Below, piece by piece: positions 6,949 through 50,729 of a stretch of DNA of 64,000 nt. Positions within the stretch are counted from its first letter, which is position 1; the number at the start of each line of letters is the position of its first letter. The stretch comes from Bacteroidota bacterium (GTDB lineage: Bacteria; Bacteroidota; Bacteroidia; AKYH767-A; OLB10): positions 371,701 through 435,700 of the forward strand of contig JADJOH010000002.1 in assembly GCA_016713925.1 (NCBI GenBank), written 5' to 3'. The position numbers and the translations under genes are program-made. The notes under the pieces are model-generated. The model made no database searches. It had not been told where the DNA came from and saw only the letters and a list, made by a program, of their open reading frames with translations.

Positions 6949-7110
6949 ATGGCATTCACCGATAAATTCGACAAAGAAGATTATTACCTGACAGCGGAAG
7001 GGTATATTGTTTTTACAGAAAAATATCATTTAAAACGCGGCTATTGCTGCCAAAGCGGATGCCGCCATTGTCCGTATAAAGTAAAACCTGAACGAAAAAA
7101 AGTAAAATAA
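6949..7110 (+). CDS. Small Cys-rich protein (DUF5522-like), 53 aa; absent from the supplied ORF track because it is under 60 aa
   Basis: ATG at 6949, TAA at 7108. Translation MAFTDKFDKEDYYLTAEGYIVFTEKYHLKRGYCCQSGCRHCPYKVKPERKKVK carries the GYCCxSGCRHCPY signature. Confidence 0.45.
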   Translation: MAFTDKFDKEDYYLTAEGYIVFTEKYHLKRGYCCQSGCRHCPYKVKPERKKVK

Positions 7111-7165
7111 TTGTTTTGTCTCTGGAAATAATTTTAGCATACTAGTTTTCTTTCTAAAGTAATTT

Positions 7166-7200
7166 GGCTTCCGGCTGCGGGCTACCGGCTGCGGGCTTCT
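7166..7200. repeat. Heptanucleotide tandem array GGCTNNN (5 units)
   Basis: ggcttcc ggctgcg ggctacc ggctgcg ggcttct, in the intergenic region upstream of hutU. Confidence 0.7.
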
Positions 7201-7429
7201 TAAATAGTAGGACATGTTTAAATACTTTTTTTACGATAAATCCTAATCTATTTCTCAGTGCCCCTAAGTGAACTCTGTGCCTACGTGGTGAAAATGATAG
7301 TTTCATTCATGACCAATATCCTTTCGGTTCTTAATTTGGATTAATAGTATATCGGGTAAATTCAACGGTAGTAAAGGCAGTAAAATCGCTTTCTTTCTAT
7401 TAAATTTGCAGGATAAATAATAACCGGAT

Positions 7430-9106
7430 ATGCAGGATACAGCACAGAAACTCGATCTCTCGAAAACGAAAACGCCTACAGGTACTTCACTCTCCTGCAA
7501 AGGATGGGTGCAGGAGGCCGCTTTACGCATGTTGCACAACAATCTGGATCCGGATGTGGCGGAGCGTCCCGAAGACCTGATCGTTTATGGTGGTCGTGGA
7601 AAAGCAGCGCGTAATGTAGAAGCCTTTCACCTGATTGTAAAAGCACTGAAGGACCTGAACGATGACGAAACCCTGCTCGTTCAAAGCGGGAAACCCGTCG
7701 CCATCCTTCCCACCCATAAAGATGCGCCGAGAGTGATCATCAGCAATTCACAGCTGGTACCGAAATGGGCTACCTGGGAAGTGTTTGATGAACTCGAGAA
7801 AAAGGGATTGATGATGTACGGTCAGATGACTGCCGGCTCATGGATTTATATCGGCTCACAAGGTATTGTTCAGGGCACCTACGAAACCTTCAATGCGGTT
7901 GCGGATAAACATTTTGGCGGGTCATTAAAGGGTCGACTTTGTGTGACGGCCGGCTTAGGCGGAATGGGTGGAGCACAACCACTCGCGATTACCATGGCAG
8001 ATGGCGTTTGTCTGGCTGCGGAGGTGGAAGAATGGCGGGCGCAGAAGCGTGTAGAGACGCGCTACCTTGACTTCATTGAAAAAGATATTGATAAAGCCAT
8101 CGACCTTGCGCTGGAGTTTAAAGCTAAGGGCGAGAATAAATCTATTGGCGTGATTTGTACGGCGATTAAACTTTTGCAACGGTTGAAAGAGCGAAATATC
8201 ATTCCGGACGTGCTTACCGACCAAACATCCGCACACGACCCGCTCGTTGGTTATTTGCCCGAAGGACTTTCCGTTGAAGAAGGCAATGTACTGCGGGAGA
8301 CAAATCCGGACCGCTATATTGAAATGGCCTATGATTCGATGGCCGAGCATGTGTTGCTGATGCTGGAATTACAAAAGAAAGGCGCCATCACCTTCGACTA
8401 TGGCAATAACCTCCGTGGACGTGCACTGGAACGCGGGGTAGAAAATGCATTCGATTTCCCGGAATTTGTTCCCGCCTATATTCGTCCGCTGTTTTGTGAG
8501 GGGAAAGGACCTTTCCGCTGGGCGGCATTGAGTGGGGATCCGGAAGACATCAAAGTAACGGATGAGGCTATCCTAAAATTATTTCCGGAGGATACCGGCT
8601 TACATCGCTGGATAAAAATGGCACAGGAGCGCATCGCCTTCCAGGGATTGCCTGCCCGTATCTGCTGGATCGGACAAGGTGATCGTGAAAAGGCCGGACA
8701 ACTCTTCAATGAACTGGTACGCACCGGCAAAGTAAAAGCACCTATTGTTATCGGCAGGGATCATCTCGATACCGGATCGGTGGCTAGCCCTAACCGTGAG
8801 ACAGAAGCGATGCTGGACGGATCCGATGCCGTAGCGGATTGGCCCATATTGAATGCATTGATCAATACTGCCGGCGGAGCTTCCTGGGTAAGTCTGCATC
8901 ACGGCGGTGGCGTGGGTATGGGTTATTCCATTCATTCGGGAATGGTCATCGTTGCCGACGGAACGGAAGATGCAGCACGACGCCTGAAAAGAGTATTGCA
9001 CAATGATCCCGCGATGGGTGTTATCCGACATATGGATGCCGGTTATGATATCGCTACGGATACCGCACGCAAGCATCGCCTCGATATTCGGGAACGATTG
9101 AAGTAG
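7430..9106 (+). CDS. hutU: Urocanate hydratase
   Basis: 558 aa, the usual urocanase length, with strong similarity to urocanase throughout. A TAAATTTG (TAnnTTTG-type) box lies about 25 nt upstream. Confidence 0.85.
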
Positions 9107-9133
9107 TGGGGCGCTCTCTGCGTTCGCCGGGGG

Positions 9134-9265
9134 GATCGTCTCGTCATTACTCAACTCGTCTTCGACGATTTGAATCTGACGAGACTGGGAGGAGGGGAGG
9201 ATCGTCTCGTCATTACTCAATTCGTCTTCGACGATTTGAATCTGACGAGACTGGGAGGAGAAAAT
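9134..9265. repeat. Two tandem copies of a 66-bp element with nested inverted repeats (gtctcgtca...tgacgagac)
   Basis: The copies begin at 9134 and 9200 and are near-identical. They lie downstream of hutU and upstream of the Trx-ApbE operon. A second short duplicated motif taccttgcgtYcccCGCG follows at 9300-9345. Confidence 0.7.
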
Positions 9266-9478
9266 TCATCCCTCAATTCTGATATGAAATTCCGTGTTCC
9301 TCCTGTTTACCTTGCGTCCCCCGCGCTTACCTTGCGTTCCCCGCGGTTAAGTCACAAGTTTAATAACCAATTAGAATTTAAAAATGAATGACCAATTCTT
9401 ATTTTGATCAATTAAAATTGTACTTGATTTTCATTAAAATTCAAATTTGAAAGTATATAAACCCGTATAGACAGAAAC

Positions 9479-19167: not shown

Positions 19168-19202
19168 CGCTTCCGGCTTCCGGCTTCCAGCTGCCGGCTG
19201 TG
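19168..19202. repeat. Heptanucleotide tandem array GGCTNNN
   Basis: cgcttcc ggcttcc ggcttcc agctgcc ggctgtg, immediately after the helicase stop. Confidence 0.7.
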
Positions 19203-19431: not shown

Positions 19432-19522
19432 AGCCGGTAGCTGGCAGCCGGAAGCCGGAAGCAAAGAGCTGGAAGCCGGTAGCTGGCAGCCGGAAGCAGA
19501 GAAATGCTAGCCGGAAGCAAAA
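19432..19522. repeat. Heptanucleotide tandem array AGCNNNN (13 units), inverted relative to the 19168 array
   Basis: agccggt agctggc agccgga agccgga agcaaag agctgga agccggt agctggc agccgga ... Confidence 0.7.
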
Positions 19523-20281: not shown

Positions 20282-21592
20282 ATGACAGGTGGCAGTTTTG
20301 AAATCACCGGTGGCTGCAAACTGAATGGTACTATTGAACCTCAGGGAGCCAAGAATGAAGCCTTGCAAATACTTTGTGCAGTTTTGCTTACTGAAGAAGA
20401 ATGCATCATAGAAAATGTTCCGGAGATACGGGATGTCATCAAGCTGATTGAATTGCTCGGAAAAATGGGCGTACAGACCCAACGCTTAAAGCCCAATACG
20501 TTCTCCTTTACGGCTAAAAACATTGATCTCAGTTATCTCGAGACAAAAGAATTTGCCAAATTGGGAGCTGCTTTAAGAGGGTCTATCATGATTATTGGTC
20601 CCTTGCTTGCCCGCTATGGGAAAGCCGCGATTCCAAAGCCGGGTGGAGATAAAATCGGACGCAGACGGTTAGATACCCATTTTATCGGTTTCCAAAATCT
20701 GGGTGCAAAATTTGATTTCGACAGCAATGATAATTTTTACCGGGTAGATGCGCAGCACCTGAAAGGAACGTATATGCTCCTCGACGAAGCTTCGGTTACA
20801 GGAACAGCGAATATCGTGATGGCCGCAGTGATGGCTGAAGGCACGACCACGATTTACAATGCCGCTTGCGAACCGTATTTGCAACAGCTCTGCAAAATGC
20901 TGAATCAAATGGGAGCTAAAATCACAGGTATTGGCTCCAACTTGCTGGTGATTGAAGGGGTGAAATCATTAAAAGGAACGAAACACCGCATCCTGCCGGA
21001 TATGATAGAAGTCGGTTCTTTTATCGGTCTGGCTGCCATGACGCAGAGTGAGTTGACCATTAAAAATGTAGGATTACAACATCTCGGCATTATTCCTTCT
21101 ACTTTTCAACGGCTGGGAATAAAGATGGAATTCAGAGGGGACGATATTTATATTCCGGCTCAGGAGATGTATGAGATCGATACCTTTATTGACGGATCTA
21201 TACTCACGATTGCCGATCAGATATGGCCCGGTTTCACACCGGACTTACTCAGTGTGATCCTCGTTACTGCTACTCAGGCTAAAGGAACTATTCTTGTCCA
21301 CCAGAAAATGTTTGAAAGCAGGTTGTTCTTTGTCGATAAACTTATCGATATGGGAGCACAGATCATCCTCTGTGATCCGCATCGTGCAACCGTTATCGGT
21401 CTTGCCCGTAAACACCCCTTGAAAGGCATTCAAATGACCTCACCCGATATTCGTGCAGGAGTAGCCCTCCTGATCGCCGCCATGAGTGCAAAAGGCAAAA
21501 GCGTGATCCATAATATCGAACAAATTGATCGCGGCTATGAAAGAATTGACGAACGTTTGAACGCGTTAGGAGCTCAGATAAAAAGAGTTTAA
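20282..21592 (+). CDS. murA: UDP-N-acetylglucosamine 1-carboxyvinyltransferase
   Basis: MTGGSFEITGGCKLNGTIEPQGAKNEALQILCAVLL... is MurA throughout. An alternative upstream start at 20240 overlaps the DUF4290 gene. Confidence 0.85.
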   Translation: MTGGSFEITGGCKLNGTIEPQGAKNEALQILCAVLLTEEECIIENVPEIRDVIKLIELLGKMGVQTQRLKPNTFSFTAKNIDLSYLETKEFAKLGAALRGSIMIIGPLLARYGKAAIPKPGGDKIGRRRLDTHFIGFQNLGAKFDFDSNDNFYRVDAQHLKGTYMLLDEASVTGTANIVMAAVMAEGTTTIYNAACEPYLQQLCKMLNQMGAKITGIGSNLLVIEGVKSLKGTKHRILPDMIEVGSFIGLAAMTQSELTIKNVGLQHLGIIPSTFQRLGIKMEFRGDDIYIPAQEMYEIDTFIDGSILTIADQIWPGFTPDLLSVILVTATQAKGTILVHQKMFESRLFFVDKLIDMGAQIILCDPHRATVIGLARKHPLKGIQMTSPDIRAGVALLIAAMSAKGKSVIHNIEQIDRGYERIDERLNALGAQIKRV

Positions 21593-21600
21593 TGTTCAAA

Positions 21601-21782
21601 GTTTAAGGTTTAAGGTTTAAGGTTTAAAGTTTAAGGTTTAAAGTTTAAAGTTTCAATAATTAAGTTGAAAGATTTGAAGATTAAAGTTAAAGGTTGAAAT
21701 AGCCAGAAGCCAGAAGCTAGAAGTCGGTAGCCGGGAGCCAGGAGCCGAGCCCGTAGCCGGGAGCCGGAAGCCGGAAGCCAAG
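21601..21782. repeat. Composite heptanucleotide tandem array: (GTTTAAG)x8, degrading through TTGAAAG-like units into (GAAGCCA / AGCCGGA)x12 with 7-nt phase largely kept
   Basis: Read directly from the sequence. The array begins 9 nt after the murA stop. Confidence 0.75.
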
Positions 21783-29409: not shown

Positions 29410-29687
29410 TTGAATTATGAATTTTTTTTGATGAAGGTTGAATTAAAATATTTCGAATGGTTATCGAATGATGGAATTAGATGATTTGAAAAGACCTGAG
29501 TGCCGGAGTATTTGATATTTTGAATAGTACAGCATCTTGGTCTAGCTTATAACTAACACGTACACTATTCTGTACGTCGATTCCCGGTACTTAGAATCAA
29601 ATTGAACACATCGTTATTCGCTGAAGTCTTACCTTAATTACTAAGGCCCCCTGTTCCATAAGCACACTCCAATAATTCAACACTCCA

Positions 29688-29720
29688 ATTCTGAATTCTG
29701 AATTCTGAATTCTGAATTCA
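29688..29720. repeat. Heptanucleotide tandem repeat (ATTCTGA)x4.7
   Basis: The repeat overlaps the stop codon of the acyl-CoA ligase gene. Confidence 0.7.
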
Positions 29721-45530: not shown

Positions 45531-47765
45531 ATGTCTTTCGCTACAGAAGAACTAACGACGGTTGAAACTGCTAAAAAACTGGGTTTGTTACCCGAAGAAT
45601 TTGAAAAGATCAAAGAATTTCTAGGCCGGGTTCCCAATTTTACCGAATTAAGTATTTATTCCGTGATGTGGTCGGAGCATTGTTCGTATAAAAACTCCAT
45701 CACCTGGTTAAAAACGCTGCCAAAGAAAGGTCCGCATTTGCTGGCTGAAGCCGGGGAAGAAAACGCGGGACTGGTATCGATTGGTGATGGTCTGGCCTGT
45801 GCATTCAAAATCGAATCACATAATCATCCCTCCGCCATCGAACCCTATCAGGGAGCTGCCACAGGTGTTGGTGGTATCAACCGCGATATTTTTACGATGG
45901 GTGCTCGACCGATCGCTCAATTAAATTCCTTGCGCTTTGGAAATCCGGAGCTGGCAAAAACGCAATGGCTGATGCGTGGTGTGGTGAAAGGCATTGGTGA
46001 TTATGGAAATGCTTTTGGTGTGCCTACTGTTGGAGGAGAAGTTTTCTTTGATGAATCCTTCAACGTGAATATTTTAGTCAATGCCATGTCGGTGGGCATT
46101 GTAAAGGCGGGTGAAACGGTCTCTGCCATTTCACAAGGTGTGGGCAATCCTGTTTATATTGTCGGATCTTCTACAGGCAAGGACGGTATCCATGGTGCCA
46201 CCTTTGCATCGGGCGATTTGCATGCTGATTCCCATGAGGATTTACCTTCTGTACAAGTAGGAGATCCGTTTATGGAGAAATTATTACTGGAAGCCACTCT
46301 TGAAATCATCAAGACCGGTGCAGTTGTAGGCATGCAGGATATGGGTGCTGCCGGAATTATTTGTTCTACGAGTGAGATGTCCGCGAAAGGAAAGCATGGT
46401 ATGAATGTCTGGCTGGATAAAGTTCCTACCCGACAGCCGAACATGAAAGGATGGGAGATTTTACTCAGTGAGTCTCAGGAGAGAATGCTGGTGATCGTTC
46501 AAAAGGGACGTGAGGCGGAAGTGGAGAAAATTTTTGAGAAATGGGATTTGAACTGCACACAAATCGGCGAGGTCATTGCAGGAGAGCGATTGCATTTCTT
46601 TATGCATGGAGAACAGCTGGCTGATGTCCCGGCAGATTCGCTCGTTCTGGGTGGTGGAGCTCCTATTTACAAGCGGGAATTCAAAGAGCCGGCCTACATC
46701 GCCCAAAACAAAGCCTTCGACATCAACAAAGTTCCTGTACCTTCGGATATGCGGCCCGTTATGAACCATCTGGTCAGACATCCGAACATTGCTTCGAAAC
46801 GCTGGATATATACACAGTATGATTCGATGGTAGGCACCATCAATATGAGCACCAACAAACCCAGTGATGCCGCTATTGTAGATGTTCGCGGGACGAAAAA
46901 AGCATTGGCGCTCGTTGTAGATTGCAATTCCCGTTATGTACATAGTGATCCGGAGACGGGCTGTGCCATTGCTGTAGCTGAAGCTGCGCGAAACATTGTT
47001 TGTTCCGGCGGAGAGCCCTCGGCAGTTACCAATTGTTTGAACTTCGGAAACCCTTATAATCCGGAAGTGTACTGGCAGTTTGTGCAGGCCATCAAAGGGA
47101 TGTCGTCCGCATGTACCCGCTTTGAAACACCGGTGACAGGAGGAAATGTCAGTTTTTACAATCAATCGAAAAATGAGCAGGGAGAAGTTCCGGTATTCCC
47201 CACACCCACGATAGGAATGGTGGGCATATTGCCGCAGAAGAATCATCAGATTACGTTGGATTTTAAAAAGGAAGGCGATGTACTCCTCCTGCTGGGTGCT
47301 TCACAGGATGATATTGCCTCTTCAGAATATTTATATTCCTATTGTAAGATAAAAAATAGTCCGGCTCCCTACTTCAACCTCGAAGAAGAATTTTTAGTAC
47401 AGGATCTCGTGAAAACCCTCATCAAAAACAATCTCATTGAAAGTGCGCATGATGTTTCGGATGGAGGATTATTCATTTGTTTACTGGAATCAGGAATGCC
47501 ACGCGGTCTCGGATTTCGCATTGACACCGACGAGGAGTATCGCAAGGACGCCTATCTTTTCGGAGAGGCGCAGGGCAGAATTGTTGTGAGTGTCAGTCCC
47601 GAAAAACTCGACGCCTTTGTTGAACTGGTCGCTGCTTCTGATATCGATTTCACCAATCTGGGCGAAGTAGGAGGAAATGCCATTGTAATTGACGAGGAAG
47701 AATATGGAAGTGTACATACTTTTAAGGAGAAGTATGATCATGCGATTGGGGATATGATGTCATAG
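45531..47765 (+). CDS. purL: Phosphoribosylformylglycinamidine synthase subunit PurL
   Basis: 744 aa. SEHCSYKNS and AIR-synthase-related domains. Confidence 0.9.
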   Translation: MSFATEELTTVETAKKLGLLPEEFEKIKEFLGRVPNFTELSIYSVMWSEHCSYKNSITWLKTLPKKGPHLLAEAGEENAGLVSIGDGLACAFKIESHNHPSAIEPYQGAATGVGGINRDIFTMGARPIAQLNSLRFGNPELAKTQWLMRGVVKGIGDYGNAFGVPTVGGEVFFDESFNVNILVNAMSVGIVKAGETVSAISQGVGNPVYIVGSSTGKDGIHGATFASGDLHADSHEDLPSVQVGDPFMEKLLLEATLEIIKTGAVVGMQDMGAAGIICSTSEMSAKGKHGMNVWLDKVPTRQPNMKGWEILLSESQERMLVIVQKGREAEVEKIFEKWDLNCTQIGEVIAGERLHFFMHGEQLADVPADSLVLGGGAPIYKREFKEPAYIAQNKAFDINKVPVPSDMRPVMNHLVRHPNIASKRWIYTQYDSMVGTINMSTNKPSDAAIVDVRGTKKALALVVDCNSRYVHSDPETGCAIAVAEAARNIVCSGGEPSAVTNCLNFGNPYNPEVYWQFVQAIKGMSSACTRFETPVTGGNVSFYNQSKNEQGEVPVFPTPTIGMVGILPQKNHQITLDFKKEGDVLLLLGASQDDIASSEYLYSYCKIKNSPAPYFNLEEEFLVQDLVKTLIKNNLIESAHDVSDGGLFICLLESGMPRGLGFRIDTDEEYRKDAYLFGEAQGRIVVSVSPEKLDAFVELVAASDIDFTNLGEVGGNAIVIDEEEYGSVHTFKEKYDHAIGDMMS

Positions 47766-47888
47766 GCTACCGGCTTCCGGCTTCCGGCTACCGGCTGCGG
47801 GCTTCTGGCTGCTGGCTACTTGCTTTTGACCACTTACTTATATGAAAGCTTCAGGCTGCGGGCTGCGGGCTACAGGTGTCGGGCTATA
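47765..47888. repeat. Heptanucleotide tandem arrays GGCTNNN (8 units at 47765-47820, 5 units at 47854-47888)
   Basis: The array begins inside the purL stop codon: ggctacc ggcttcc ggcttcc ggctacc ggctgcg ggcttct ggctgct ggctact. Confidence 0.75.
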
Positions 47889-47987: not shown

Positions 47988-48542
47988 ATGAAAATTTCAA
48001 TTAATATTAAAAGAGTAATTCTAACAACTTTGGCTTGTTTCATGGCAGCTATACTTCCGCTTATTTTTTCTGCATCAGAATTGATTTATACTTTATCTGT
48101 GCCTCTCTTTTATTCAATAGCAATACCATTGACCAACTTAGACAGGGTAATTACCAAAAGAAAGTCCCAAGCTTTTGTACTTAGTATCTTGTTGACAATA
48201 ATTCTGTTTTTTTCATCTGTTTCATTGGGACTTTTACTTGGTCAGAGTTTTTTGGGAACTTATTCTATTCATGTTGTTTGTTTAATTTCCGGACTTTTGA
48301 CATTACTTATAAACAGTATTTTTATCCGAATTGATAATATACTACTAGGATTATTAATAACAGGATTTTTTGCTCTCCCTGTACCCTTTTTGACAATATT
48401 TTTGAAAGGACATAAAATATTTGACATAGATCTATTTGGCGACCCGGTAACTTTTTTTATAGTTTGGCCAACGATAATGGGTCTGGCTATTTCAATAAGT
48501 ATATGGACAAAGACAACCATTACTAAAGCAATCATCGAATAA
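47988..48542 (+). CDS. Hypothetical polytopic membrane protein (AT-rich, about 31% GC)
   Basis: 184 aa with 5-6 hydrophobic segments. Composition is atypical for the window. Confidence 0.45.
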   Translation: MKISINIKRVILTTLACFMAAILPLIFSASELIYTLSVPLFYSIAIPLTNLDRVITKRKSQAFVLSILLTIILFFSSVSLGLLLGQSFLGTYSIHVVCLISGLLTLLINSIFIRIDNILLGLLITGFFALPVPFLTIFLKGHKIFDIDLFGDPVTFFIVWPTIMGLAISISIWTKTTITKAIIE

Positions 48543-48709: not shown

Positions 48710-49351
48710 ATGACAAAAACTCTTTACATATTTAGCGGACTGGGGGCTGATGAAAGAGTCTTTCAACGACTTGACTTTTCCGGCTTTTCGACAACTTACA
48801 TCAAATGGATTGTTCCGCAAGACAATGAAACTATTGAGCACTATGCAACACGACTACTTGACCAAATTACAACTATAAAACCGACTTTAATCGGACTTTC
48901 ATTCGGTGGACTAATAGCTATTGAAATTGCAAAACAAATTGAAACTGAAAAAGTAGTTTTAATCGCTTCTGTAAAGACTAAAAAAGAAATTCCCCTTTAC
49001 TATCGTTTGGCCGGACAACTTGGACTTCATAAACTTATTCCAACAGCCTTTTTAAAAAGCTCAACCTTTCTTACAAATTGGTTCTTTGGCACAGGTTCAA
49101 AGTTTGAAAAGCAACTTTTAAAACAAATTCTTATGGACACCAATCCAGTTTATTTGAAGTGGGCTATTGAAAAGGTGGTAAAATGGAGAAATCAAAAAGA
49201 GACCATAAACATCTTTCATATACACGGGACAGCCGACAGAATTCTACCATTAAAAAATGTAAAATGCAACGCGATAATCAAGGATGGTGGTCACTTTATG
49301 ACCTTAAATAAGGCCGATGAAATCAACAATATTTTAAGACAGCAGATATGA
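48710..49351 (+). CDS. Alpha/beta hydrolase fold protein
   Basis: GLSFGG nucleophile-elbow motif. 213 aa. AT-rich. Confidence 0.55.
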   Translation: MTKTLYIFSGLGADERVFQRLDFSGFSTTYIKWIVPQDNETIEHYATRLLDQITTIKPTLIGLSFGGLIAIEIAKQIETEKVVLIASVKTKKEIPLYYRLAGQLGLHKLIPTAFLKSSTFLTNWFFGTGSKFEKQLLKQILMDTNPVYLKWAIEKVVKWRNQKETINIFHIHGTADRILPLKNVKCNAIIKDGGHFMTLNKADEINNILRQQI

Positions 49352-49439
49352 CAATGAAAATCCTACCCAATTATGACCTTTAAAACACTCATATCACATA
49401 GCAAAGCGGGTAGCTGGCAGCTGATAGCTCAAATCCAAA

Positions 49440-50040
49440 CAAAGAAATCACGAGGGGGGCCCCAAACAACCTTTTCCCCAAAAAATTGGAATTATAAAAA
49501 TTAAATTTTACCCCACCCGGGGGAAAAAAGGGCCCCAAAACCTTAACCCCAAAACCTGGCGACGGGGGGGGGAGGGGGCGGAAGGAATTACACCCAAACA
49601 AAGGGGGGGGAAAAAGCCGCCCCAAAGGCGGGGGGGGGCGCACCTAAAAATAAAAAAAGAAAAGGATTTAAAAAAAAAAAAAAGGAGAAAAAAAAAAAAA
49701 CCCACCGGAAACGCCCCAGGGGCCCTGAGCATTAAAAAAAAAAAATAAGAGGAGGAGAAAAAAGCAAACGGGGGGGGCCGGCCCCCCCCCCCCCCCCCGC
49801 GGGGGGGGGGGGGGGGGGGGGGGGGGGCCCGGGAAATTATTCCAGCGGGACTCCAAAAAAAAAAAAATAAACCCACCAAAAAACCCCAATAACGACAAAC
49901 AAAAAAAAAAAAAAAAAAAATAAAAGGGACAAATTTAAAAAAAGGGCCCGGGGGAAAAAAAGGGAAAAACCCCCCAAACGGGGGGCGCGGGGGAGCCCAA
50001 AAAAAACCCCAAAAAAAGGGGAAAAGGGGGGGGGGGGGGG
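49440..50040. other. Low-complexity homopolymer-rich tract (long A, C and G runs, G run over 25 nt), probable assembly or base-calling artifact
   Basis: Homopolymer runs of A, C and G, with T almost absent. ORFs predicted here translate to poly-P, poly-G and poly-F. Confidence 0.6.
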
Positions 50041-50145
50041 GAACGGTAAGATTTAGTTGAAAACATCGAAAGTCCATTTTGTCAATCAACACTACCCAAC
50101 ACGAGATTAAAAAACGCAACCGATAGATTATAACCCTTTGCCAGT

Positions 50146-50187
50146 TGCCCCAAGCCCGCAGCCGGAAACCGGAAGCCAAAAAGCTAC
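50146..50187. repeat. Heptanucleotide tandem array AGCCNNN (inverted relative to the 47765 array)
   Basis: agcccgc agccgga aaccgga agccaaa aagctac. Overlaps the 3' end of the 50184-50534 ORF. Confidence 0.65.
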
Positions 50188-50534
50188 AATGCCCCCACCC
50201 TCTTTTCCTTCGGACGAATAAATATATAGTAGCTCAAGACAATGATGACACCGATGGTGAAAAACACAATAGCTATTGGGCGCAAGGTATCGTTGAAGAA
50301 AAATTCTCCGATCATCCAGATGGAATTGGCACAAAGCCAGCTCACCACTGCTATGTTGTGAAAAAGTTCAGAGTTGAGGGCCCGGTGTTTCCAGGTGAGG
50401 TAGATGGCCACAGCAAGGGTGGGTAGGATCATGATTAAACCGGGAATTTTCAAATCCAGCACCCAACAGGTATCCTTGATCAGCCATAGCACGATATGAA
50501 AGTTCTCGTATTCGCGTAATTTGGTATTCATCAT
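50184..50534 (-). CDS. Small hypothetical membrane protein
   Basis: 116 aa with 3 hydrophobic segments. Confidence 0.4.
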   Translation of the reverse strand: MMNTKLREYENFHIVLWLIKDTCWVLDLKIPGLIMILPTLAVAIYLTWKHRALNSELFHNIAVVSWLCANSIWMIGEFFFNDTLRPIAIVFFTIGVIIVLSYYIFIRPKEKRVGAL

Positions 50535-50729
50535 GGGGCTAATATAATTAATATCAAAAAACGAATCAACTTTTTAGTATGCAGGAGACCTGGTTAACTG
50601 GTACCACTTTTTTCAAAAGTATTAAAACAAGGCAAACATTTGTTTGAACAAAATACGAAATTATCACTCTAAAACATAACATTTATCATACTTTGAAAAC
50701 AGGCCAAACAAATTGAATAATATTGCTAA

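What the first reader, a model, noticed from the sequence alone, without database searches (positions are those of the whole stretch)
49440..50040. About 600-bp tract made of long A/C/G homopolymer runs, probably an artifact, inside a compositionally odd segment
The sequence here is a succession of homopolymer runs of A, C and G, with T almost absent. It includes a G run of more than 25 nt immediately after a C run of about 18 nt. It reads like a smeared or stuttered base-call, not natural DNA. Every ORF predicted through it encodes poly-Pro/Gly/Phe nonsense. It lies between two inverted heptamer arrays (49405 and 50146), a repeat context in which assemblers commonly fail. A genuine extreme G/C-tract locus is possible (polyG/polyC tracts can act as phase-variation switches or form G-quadruplexes) but is much less likely.
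Basis: seen in the sequence. Interest (0 to 1): 0.5.

Follow-up and report, generated by a model that had tools for sequence, protein, structure and literature searches.

The report
Garbled consensus hiding a toxin-antitoxin cassette
The 600-base stretch of long A, C and G runs is not real DNA: it is a garbled consensus in a long-read metagenome-assembled genome, and it overwrites an ordinary MazF/PemK-type toxin-antitoxin gene pair that two independent assemblies of the same species show intact at this spot.

Summary
Window 49435-50050 has a mean homopolymer run length of 2.99, against 1.42 +/- 0.05 elsewhere. It is 6.9% T, against 27% elsewhere. It holds every run of 9 nt or more in the 64 kb, including C17 and G27.

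It is an artefact. Two independent short-read assemblies of the same species (L001, L127) share the window's flanks base for base. Between those flanks they carry a 76-aa antitoxin gene and a 111-aa PemK/MazF toxin gene (Pfam E = 4.8e-27).

The window's tract aligns to that cassette almost in register (score 362, against 72 +/- 30 for controls). The bases are smeared: isolated bases take the identity of a neighbour and T is nearly erased.

Six proteins around the tract (window 45.5-53.0 kb) equal GenBank MBK7886056-61 on a 1.37-Mb MAG contig. By accession and naming style this contig belongs to a nanopore, CANU, Racon, medaka, Illumina-Racon data set that kept unpolished stretches.

The cassette is strain-variable: at least nine related loci lack it. 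The most likely cause is a miscalled consensus over a poorly supported allele, too wrong for short reads to map and repair.

The heptamer arrays beside the tract are real and occur across the window. They are not the cause. Interest is low; the value is a data-quality correction.

The parts
49435..50050 (.). Garbled consensus tract (artefact). It is a smeared, T-depleted copy of a toxin-antitoxin cassette with its promoter region, 33 nt shorter than the true sequence.
   Evidence: The global alignment to the L001 cassette scores 362, against 72 +/- 30 (max 126) for 60 control segments. Identity is 100% up to 49434, about 0.4-0.67 per 50-nt bin inside the tract, and 100% again from 50051.
49534..49763 (+). 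Position where the 76-aa antitoxin gene should be. It is unreadable in the window.
   Evidence: Coordinates were mapped from L001 5395-5165 through the alignment. The ORF is intact and identical in L001 and L127. It has no Pfam or NCBIfam family. tblastn finds nothing left of it in the window.
49753..50056 (+). Position where the 111-aa PemK/MazF toxin gene should be. It overlaps the antitoxin gene by 11 nt. Only the last 6 nt, including the TAG stop at 50054-50056, are read correctly.
   Evidence: Coordinates were mapped from L001 5175-4840. The L001 protein matches Pfam PF02452 PemK_toxin with E = 4.8e-27 over 1-109 of 109 profile positions. It also gives weak NCBIfam MazF/ChpB hits. A PemK gene is likewise called in L127.
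49352..49434 (.). Correctly read left flank of the cassette-bearing allele, including the heptamer array at 49405-49435.
   Evidence: It is 100% identical to L001. It differs from the cassette-less alleles L024, L126, L128-L131 and L133-L135.
50051..50183 (.). Correctly read right flank of the cassette-bearing allele, including the heptamer array at 50146-50180, up to the stop codon of the 116-aa gene.
   Evidence: It is 98-100% identical to L001 per 50-nt bin. L127 is 99.6% identical over 50051-50560.
48710..49351 (+). Upstream neighbour: a 213-aa alpha/beta-hydrolase-like protein, identical to GenBank MBK7886058.1.
50184..50534 (-). Downstream neighbour: a 116-aa membrane protein, identical to GenBank MBK7886059.1 (locus tag IPJ86_01755). 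Its accession follows the hydrolase's directly, so no CDS is annotated in the tract.

Best explanation
The tract is a consensus or base-calling artefact laid over a real type II toxin-antitoxin cassette: a promoter, a 76-aa antitoxin gene and a 111-aa PemK/MazF toxin gene.

Shown:
1. The true sequence is known from two independent conspecific assemblies.
2. The window's tract is an almost in-register, low-pass-filtered and T-depleted copy of that sequence.
3. The cassette is strain-variable.
4. Six window proteins around the tract equal six consecutive GenBank proteins of a 1.37-Mb MAG contig, with no CDS annotated in the tract.

Inferred:
- The MAG comes from the published activated-sludge pipeline. 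That pipeline ran R9.4.1 nanopore reads with Guppy flip-flop, then CANU with corMinCoverage=0, Racon, medaka twice, and Racon with Illumina reads using --include-unpolished.
- At this strain-variable locus the cassette-bearing allele had weak or conflicting long-read support. Either one poor read segment formed the backbone, or the pile-up was dominated by reads from cassette-less strains that span the site as a deletion.
- The per-column caller then effectively averaged weak evidence over neighbouring columns. It emitted runs of the locally commonest base.
- The result is about 45% wrong, so 150-nt Illumina reads could no longer align to it. They were clipped exactly at the edges, and the unpolished stretch was kept.

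The exact step at which the smear arose (base-caller, CANU consensus or medaka) is not determined.
For: True sequence:
- L001 (GCA_020054605.1) and L127 (GCA_020051655.1) carry 915 nt between the hydrolase stop and the end of the 116-aa gene. They are 99.3% identical to each other, with two intact overlapping ORFs.
- The toxin matches PF02452 with E = 4.8e-27.
- The window has 882 nt at the same place. Its flanks are 100% identical to L001 up to 49434 and from 50051.

Derivation of the tract from the cassette:
- The alignment score is 362, against 72 +/- 30 (max 126) for controls.
- 66% of mismatches equal an adjacent reference base (control 44%), and 90% equal a base within +/-2 (control 65%).
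- The smear is symmetric: 56 mismatches copy the previous base only and 63 the next base only.
- Isolated bases are lost far more often than bases in runs. For G, 38/66 singles survive against 35/36 in runs.
- Only 37 of 172 T are kept.
- A Gaussian smoothing model with a weak T channel raises identity from 55% to 66%. In controls it goes from 41% to 50%.

Strain variability: L024, L126, L128-L131 and L133-L135 are 93-97% identical in the flanks and lack the cassette.

Source:
- Window proteins equal MBK7886056-61 on one 1,374,855-bp contig. Locus tags run IPJ86_01745 and IPJ86_01755 either side of the hydrolase.
- Sibling MAGs carry names such as Skiv_18-Q3-R9-52_BATAC.354 tig00016690-10-1084610. 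That style matches the MAG names in PMC8012365, whose methods give the pipeline.

Sharp edges: with match +2 and mismatch -8 (the minimap2 short-read preset, from my own knowledge), the score of a true read extending past 49434 never becomes positive.

Uniqueness: no comparable tract exists elsewhere in the window or in about 650 kb of fetched loci.
Against: - No raw reads or intermediate assemblies were available, so neither the coverage argument nor the step at which the smear arose has been tested.
- The contig is 1.37 Mb long and the allele-specific flanks are perfect. That argues for decent coverage of a cassette-bearing strain and sits uneasily with a simple low-coverage story.
- The T-specific loss looks most like a weak channel in a four-channel read-out, which does not exist in a nanopore pipeline. 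I have no tested explanation for it (note).
- I found no paper that documents this exact failure mode.
- The link between the window's MAG and the published pipeline rests on accession and naming style, not on a record title for this contig.
Confidence: 0.93

Rival explanations
1. The tract is the untrimmed low-quality tail of a Sanger (capillary) read, or another four-channel read, used to bridge a gap. Peaks broaden and the caller keeps emitting bases at regular spacing. The locally dominant dye is then called repeatedly, and a weak T dye drops out.
For: The error pattern fits this picture best. The smear is in register and symmetric towards neighbours, and it widens from left to right. T is selectively lost. 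A smoothing model with weak T improves the fit. Late-read peak broadening, with the caller continuing to read, is described in PMC10643650.
Against: The window's proteins belong to a MAG whose accession and naming style point to a nanopore plus HiSeq X pipeline with no Sanger step. Illumina reads there are 150 nt, far shorter than 616 nt. Degradation is not monotonic: bad and less-bad blocks alternate, and the last 15 nt improve.
Confidence: 0.03
2. The tract is genuine DNA: a decayed or hypermutated remnant of the cassette whose real poly-G and poly-C tracts could act as phase-variation switches or form G-quadruplexes.
For: The tract sits at a strain-variable locus, and long G/C tracts do exist in some bacteria. 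Nothing here directly shows read-level support or its absence.
Against: - Identity is 100% over more than 130 nt on each side and then falls abruptly to about 55%. Neutral decay would not give that.
- Substitutions copy neighbouring bases and erase T. No known mutational process does this.
- The intact relatives have no G or C run of 4 or more anywhere in the cassette, and their longest run of any base is 7. So there is no ancestral tract to vary in length.
- Changes are not restricted to one base, and there is no second (template) copy of the cassette in the window, so this is not diversity-generating-retroelement-like.
- All 10 of the window's runs of 9 nt or more occur in this one 616-nt stretch.
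Confidence: 0.02
3. Nanopore base-calling failed systematically here because the cassette DNA carries a dense modification of T, or of A on the complementary strand. All long reads are then garbled and short reads cannot rescue them.
For: The loss is T-specific; the first four errors are all isolated T. The long contig and perfect allele-specific flanks suggest that coverage was not simply low.
Against: No known bacterial system modifies a single 600-nt chromosomal segment and leaves the T-containing flanks untouched. A, C and G are also miscalled, at 28-37%. Modified-base errors in nanopore data do not normally create 20-27-nt homopolymers (own knowledge). There is no direct evidence for this reading.
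Confidence: 0.02

Closest known systems
Unpolished or mis-polished low-support regions in long-read metagenome-assembled genomes (population-chimeric MAGs)
   Same: The tract is a localised loss of consensus accuracy at a strain-variable site. It was retained because unpolished sequence is kept. It disagrees with independent assemblies and destroys the ORFs. [quoted passage not shown]
   Different: Residual nanopore errors are usually scattered indels that cause frameshifts. L024's hydrolase, split into 148-aa and 72-aa pieces, is an example. Here a contiguous 616-nt block is about 45% wrong, with a neighbour-smearing, T-erasing pattern. I could not find this pattern described.
Type II toxin-antitoxin modules of the MazEF / PemIK (Kid-Kis, ChpB) family
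   Same: The true sequence at this locus, seen in L001 and L127, is a small antitoxin gene overlapping a downstream 111-aa PemK/MazF-fold toxin gene by 11 nt. It is strain-variable in presence, as is typical of such cassettes.
   Different: The antitoxin matches no Pfam or NCBIfam family. The ribbon-helix-helix appearance of its N-terminus is my reading only. In the window itself nothing of either protein is recoverable.
Low-quality tails of capillary (Sanger) reads
   Same: Both give a growing low-pass smear of the true sequence while roughly keeping register (PMC10643650).
   Different: There is no Sanger step in the presumed pipeline, and the degradation is not monotonic.
Phase-variable poly-G/poly-C contingency tracts and G-quadruplex motifs
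   Same: The deposited sequence contains long G and C runs.
   Different: The intact relatives have no such runs at the corresponding positions. There are many runs of three different bases packed into one block, not one tract in a promoter or the 5' part of an ORF.

Membership tests
Assembly / consensus artefact | Independent assemblies of the same species agree with each other and disagree with the tract, while the flanks are identical | tested here: met
   L001 and L127 are 99.3% identical over 915 nt. The window is 100% identical to L001 up to 49434 and from 50051, and about 55% identical in between.
Assembly / consensus artefact | Composition and run structure lie outside the range of the rest of the genome | tested here: met
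   Mean run length is 2.99, against 1.42 +/- 0.05 (max 1.58). The T fraction is 0.069, against a minimum of 0.184 elsewhere. All runs of 9 nt or more lie here.
Assembly / consensus artefact | Coding capacity is destroyed where relatives have intact genes | tested here: met
   Two intact ORFs exist in L001 and L127. tblastn of both proteins finds nothing in the tract. GenBank annotates no CDS there, since the flanking accessions MBK7886058 and MBK7886059 are consecutive.
Assembly / consensus artefact | Raw reads do not support the deposited bases | not testable with these tools
   No read data were accessible.
MazEF/PemIK type II toxin-antitoxin (the underlying true sequence) | Toxin with the PemK/MazF fold | tested here: met
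   L001:4840-5175(-) matches PF02452 with E = 4.8e-27 and 94.8 bits (cut-off 23.1), covering the full profile. This holds for L001 and L127. The window's own bases fail the test.
MazEF/PemIK type II toxin-antitoxin (the underlying true sequence) | Small antitoxin gene immediately upstream, co-oriented and overlapping or abutting the toxin gene | tested here: met
   A 76-aa ORF overlaps the toxin ORF by 11 nt in L001 (5395-5165 and 5175-4840) and in L127 (2231-2461 and 2451-2786).
MazEF/PemIK type II toxin-antitoxin (the underlying true sequence) | Antitoxin belongs to a recognised antitoxin or DNA-binding family | tested here: inconclusive
   There is no Pfam hit at E <= 0.01. The only NCBIfam hits are spurious and far below their cut-offs.
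MazEF/PemIK type II toxin-antitoxin (the underlying true sequence) | Toxin is an endoribonuclease that the antitoxin neutralises | not testable with these tools
   This needs an experiment.
Phase-variable homopolymer (contingency) locus | A tract present in relatives at the same position that varies only in length | tested here: not met
   The cassette in L001 and L127 has no G or C run of 4 or more, and its longest run of any base is 7. Cassette-less relatives have no such tract either.
Diversity-generating retroelement target | Adenine-specific substitutions relative to a nearby template repeat | tested here: not met
   All four bases are substituted. There is no second copy of the cassette in the 64 kb.

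The most novel reading that the evidence does not exclude
The garbling is not a one-off glitch but a systematic nanopore read-out failure. It would be caused by a real, locally dense modification of thymine (or of adenine on the other strand) across this toxin-antitoxin cassette. That would be a domain-restricted DNA hypermodification in a bacterial chromosome. The T-specific loss, together with the apparently good support of the immediately adjacent allele-specific flanks, does not exclude this reading.
Probability: 0.02. Interest if true: 0.75.

Novelty: not a real feature. Interest (0 to 1): 0.08.

Why it matters
Biologically the locus is ordinary. A MazF/PemK-type toxin-antitoxin cassette sits between a hydrolase gene and a small membrane-protein gene in some strains of an activated-sludge Bacteroidota species and not in others.

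The practical value is quality control:
- A public MAG carries a 616-nt block of invented sequence, and the two genes that belong there are not annotated.
- Such blocks can mislead ORF callers, repeat or G-quadruplex scans, and models trained on public genomes.
- They are easy to flag. A mean homopolymer run length above about 2 in a 100-600-nt window occurred nowhere else in this window, apart from one natural AGTTTAA heptamer-repeat array at about 21.6 kb that just reaches 2.0 at the 100-nt scale, and nowhere else in about 650 kb of related loci.
- They are easy to repair from short-read assemblies.

If the cause is a recurrent failure of a neural polisher at strain-variable indels, other MAGs built with the same pipeline may hold more of them.

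Tried and rejected
- Sanger read tail. This was my first mechanistic idea, because the pattern looks like a four-channel low-pass smear with a weak T channel. I demoted it once the window's proteins turned out to be MBK7886056-61 of a long-read MAG whose presumed pipeline has no Sanger step.
- Illumina phasing or two-colour poly-G. Rejected because reads are 150 nt while the tract is 616 nt, and because the substitution matrix does not follow channel cross-talk.
- 454 or Ion Torrent flow smear. Rejected because there is no flow-order periodicity and register is kept.
- Heptamer arrays as the cause. Rejected because they occur across the window, are identical in L001 and L127, and short-read assemblies cross them.
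- Exact-pattern scans for the junctions found nothing in JGI metagenome contigs or viral contigs.
- A protein-guided scan of metagenome contigs returned only relatives of 64% identity or less.
- The look-up of encoding contigs has no record for the window's own contig, so the deposited contig could not be read directly.
- Rfam at gathering thresholds gave no hit in the window.
- The literature searches for this failure mode gave nothing specific. The search on unclonable toxin genes became moot once Sanger cloning was excluded.

Full report
**1. Observation**

Reading 49000-50600 shows normal sequence up to about 49434. Then comes a stretch made almost entirely of A, C and G runs, and normal sequence resumes near 50050.

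- Every homopolymer of 9 nt or more in the 64-kb window lies at 49564-50041. These runs include C17 at 49782-49798, G27 at 49801-49827, A20 at 49901-49920 and G16 at 50026-50041. The longest run elsewhere is 8 nt.
- Mean run length is 2.99 in the tract. Other 613-nt windows give 1.42 (sd 0.052, max 1.58).
- T makes up 6.9% of the tract. Elsewhere the mean is 26.9% and the minimum 18.4%.
- At 100-nt resolution, the only other place that reaches a mean run length of 2.0 is a natural AGTTTAA heptamer-repeat array near 21.6 kb.
- The ORFs through the tract (223, 84 and 76 aa on the minus strand) are Pro/Gly/Phe strings. They match no protein family.

The exact limits are 49435-50050.

**2. What should be there**

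The tract lies between two convergent genes. One is a 213-aa alpha/beta-hydrolase-like protein (48710-49351, + strand). The other is a 116-aa membrane protein (50184-50534, minus strand).

An exact-protein look-up of the 116-aa protein returned L001, an 8.8-kb contig of the metagenome assembly GCA_020054605.1 with the same gene order. Between the same two genes L001 carries a 76-aa ORF that overlaps a 111-aa ORF by 11 nt. The 111-aa protein matches Pfam PemK_toxin over the full profile with E = 4.8e-27, and it gives weaker NCBIfam MazF/ChpB matches.

A second independent assembly, L127 (GCA_020051655.1), has a hydrolase that differs from the window's by one residue. It has the same two genes. 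L001 and L127 are 99.3% identical over the 915 nt from the hydrolase stop to the end of the 116-aa gene. The window has 882 nt at that place.

**3. The tract is a degraded copy of that cassette**

The window and L001 are 100% identical from 49300 to 49434 and again from 50051 onwards. Identity in between is 0.41-0.67 per 50-nt bin.

For the first 120 nt or so an ungapped comparison stays in register. Over the whole tract there are only a few internal indels, plus a loss of about 25 nt under the terminal G16 run.

- The global alignment score of the tract against the true cassette is 362. Sixty other segments of the window give 72 +/- 30, with a maximum of 126.
- The errors have structure. 66% of mismatched bases equal the reference base immediately before or after them (control 44%). 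90% equal a base within two positions (control 65%).
- The effect is symmetric: 56 mismatches copy the previous base only and 63 the next base only.
- Bases inside runs survive and isolated ones do not. For G, 35/36 survive in runs of 2 or more, against 38/66 for singles.
- T is almost erased: 37 of 172 are kept, against 63-72% of A, C and G.
- A toy model that smooths the true sequence with a Gaussian kernel widening from left to right and down-weights T raises identity from 55% to 66%. It reproduces the C-run followed by the G-run. The same transformation of unrelated segments gives 50%.

No protein-level similarity to either cassette protein is left in the window, and there is no second copy of the cassette in the 64 kb.

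Mapped through the alignment, the antitoxin gene belongs at 49534-49763 and the toxin gene at 49753-50056. The toxin's TAG stop (50054-50056) is the first correctly read part.

**4. The cassette is strain-variable**

Relatives that are 93-97% identical in the flanks have only about 140-175 nt between the two flanking genes, and no toxin-antitoxin genes. These are L024, L126, L128-L131 and L133-L135. Their intergenic sequence is partly homologous to the outer parts of the window's intergenic region and diverges near the left heptamer array. None of these loci contains a junk tract.

**5. Where the window comes from**

The window's PurL, 184-aa protein, hydrolase, 116-aa protein, T9SS-domain protein and MtgA are identical to GenBank MBK7886056.1 through MBK7886061.1. 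All are labelled 'MAG... [Bacteroidetes bacterium]' and all sit on a 1,374,855-bp contig.

The locus tags are IPJ86_01745 for the 184-aa protein and IPJ86_01755 for the 116-aa protein. The hydrolase and 116-aa accessions are consecutive. So the depositors' annotation has no CDS in the tract.

Sibling MAGs of the same protein clusters have record titles such as 'Skiv_18-Q3-R9-52_BATAC.354 tig00016690-10-1084610'. That naming matches the MAG names in Singleton et al. 2021 (PMC8012365). The methods of that paper are:

1. R9.4.1 PromethION reads base-called with Guppy 2.2.3 flip-flop.
2. CANU 1.8 with corMinCoverage=0 and corOutCoverage=all.
3. Racon with --include-unpolished.
4. Two rounds of medaka 0.6.5.
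5. Racon with 2x150 HiSeq X reads, again with --include-unpolished.

That the window's MAG belongs to this data set is an inference from accession and naming style. I could not read its record title.

**6. Most likely mechanism (inferred)**

The contig's backbone took the cassette-bearing allele at a site where the population is heterogeneous. Support for that allele in the long reads was weak or conflicting. There are two ways this could have happened:

- A single poor read segment was kept uncorrected, which corMinCoverage=0 allows.
- The pile-up was dominated by cassette-less reads that span the site as a deletion. A recurrent per-column caller would then integrate weak evidence over neighbouring columns and emit the locally commonest base.

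The second route would explain three features: the smear stays in register, it behaves like a low-pass filter, and it is confined to the allele-specific segment.

Once the stretch was about 45% wrong, 150-nt reads could not align to it. With match +2 and mismatch -8 (the minimap2 short-read preset, from my own knowledge), the extension score of a true read past 49434 never becomes positive. That would explain the razor-sharp transition from perfect to garbled sequence. The --include-unpolished option then kept the stretch.

Three things do not fit neatly:

- The contig is long and the allele-specific flanks are perfect, which suggests reasonable coverage.
- The T-specific loss has no tested explanation in a nanopore pipeline (note).
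- I found no published description of this exact failure.

The verdict 'artefact' is therefore firm. The step at which it arose is not settled.

**7. Rivals**

- A Sanger or other four-channel read tail fits the error pattern best. It conflicts with the presumed data source and with the non-monotonic degradation.
- Genuine DNA (a decayed cassette, phase-variable tracts or G-quadruplexes) is contradicted in three ways. The flanks are perfect. The substitution pattern copies neighbouring bases. The intact relatives have no G or C run of 4 or more in the cassette.
- A diversity-generating-retroelement-like process is excluded because all four bases change and no template copy exists.
- A real local DNA modification that garbles all nanopore reads is not excluded, but it has no positive support beyond the T bias.

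**8. The heptamer arrays**

The arrays next to the tract belong to a window-wide family with AGCNNNN periodicity (AGCCGGA-like units). They sit in intergenic DNA at 7166-7197, 19169-19199, 19432-19518, 21701-21780, 47765-47871, 49405-49435 and 50146-50180. The pattern search gives 28 matches against 0.15 expected.

They are identical in L001 and L127, so they are real. Both arrays beside the tract read as AGCNNNN on the + strand. They are a separate curiosity and not the cause of the artefact.

**9. Verdict**

The tract is not a biological feature. It is a localised consensus failure in a public long-read MAG that conceals an ordinary, strain-variable MazF/PemK-type toxin-antitoxin cassette. 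Interest is low. The useful outputs are the corrected reading of the locus, a simple way to flag such blocks, and a concrete test plan to find the pipeline step responsible.

Noticed in passing
window 7166-7197, 19169-19199, 19432-19518, 21701-21780, 47765-47871, 49405-49435, 50146-50180: There is a family of intergenic heptamer arrays with AGCNNNN periodicity (units such as AGCCGGA / GGCTTCC), often starting right after a stop codon (for example at the purL stop, 47765). The pattern gives 28 matches against 0.15 expected. Arrays are also present in relatives (L001, L127, L024, L128). Their function is unknown. They are reminiscent of short tandemly repeated heptamers in cyanobacteria (own knowledge).
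   Followed up: partly
window 21586-21692 and 29687-29719: Other heptamer arrays have different units. AGTTTAA occurs about 15 times directly upstream of the AGCCAGA-type array at 21701-21780. A perfect AATTCTG array has 4.7 copies.
   Followed up: no
window 9129-9260: A 66-nt unit is repeated twice at 97% identity, followed by a 20-nt x2.2 repeat at 9307-9349, in an intergenic stretch.
   Followed up: no
L001 about 7104-8561 (equivalent to window about 47827, inside the heptamer array after purL): L001 carries an insertion of about 1.46 kb that encodes HTH_Tnp_1 and rve (IS3-type transposase) proteins. It sits exactly within the heptamer-array region that follows purL, and it is absent from the window.
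   Followed up: no
L024 3001-3638 (JADKIC010000016.1): The hydrolase gene of this sibling nanopore MAG appears to be frameshifted. It gave 88% identity in the best segment with a weak E-value, and the protein cluster holds 148-aa and 72-aa fragments from a contig of about 109 kb. This is the usual kind of residual long-read error, in contrast to the block artefact studied here.
   Followed up: partly
L002 (Logan SRR11088462 contig), end corresponds to window 50106: An independent short-read contig that is 98.8% identical to the window stops about 55 nt to the right of the cassette. This is consistent with strain variation breaking assemblies at this locus.
   Followed up: no
window 50184-50534 (-) and 47988-48542 (+): Both small membrane proteins next to the tract (116 aa and 184 aa) have no Pfam family. 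The 116-aa protein has relatives at 50-64% identity in many metagenomes.
   Followed up: no
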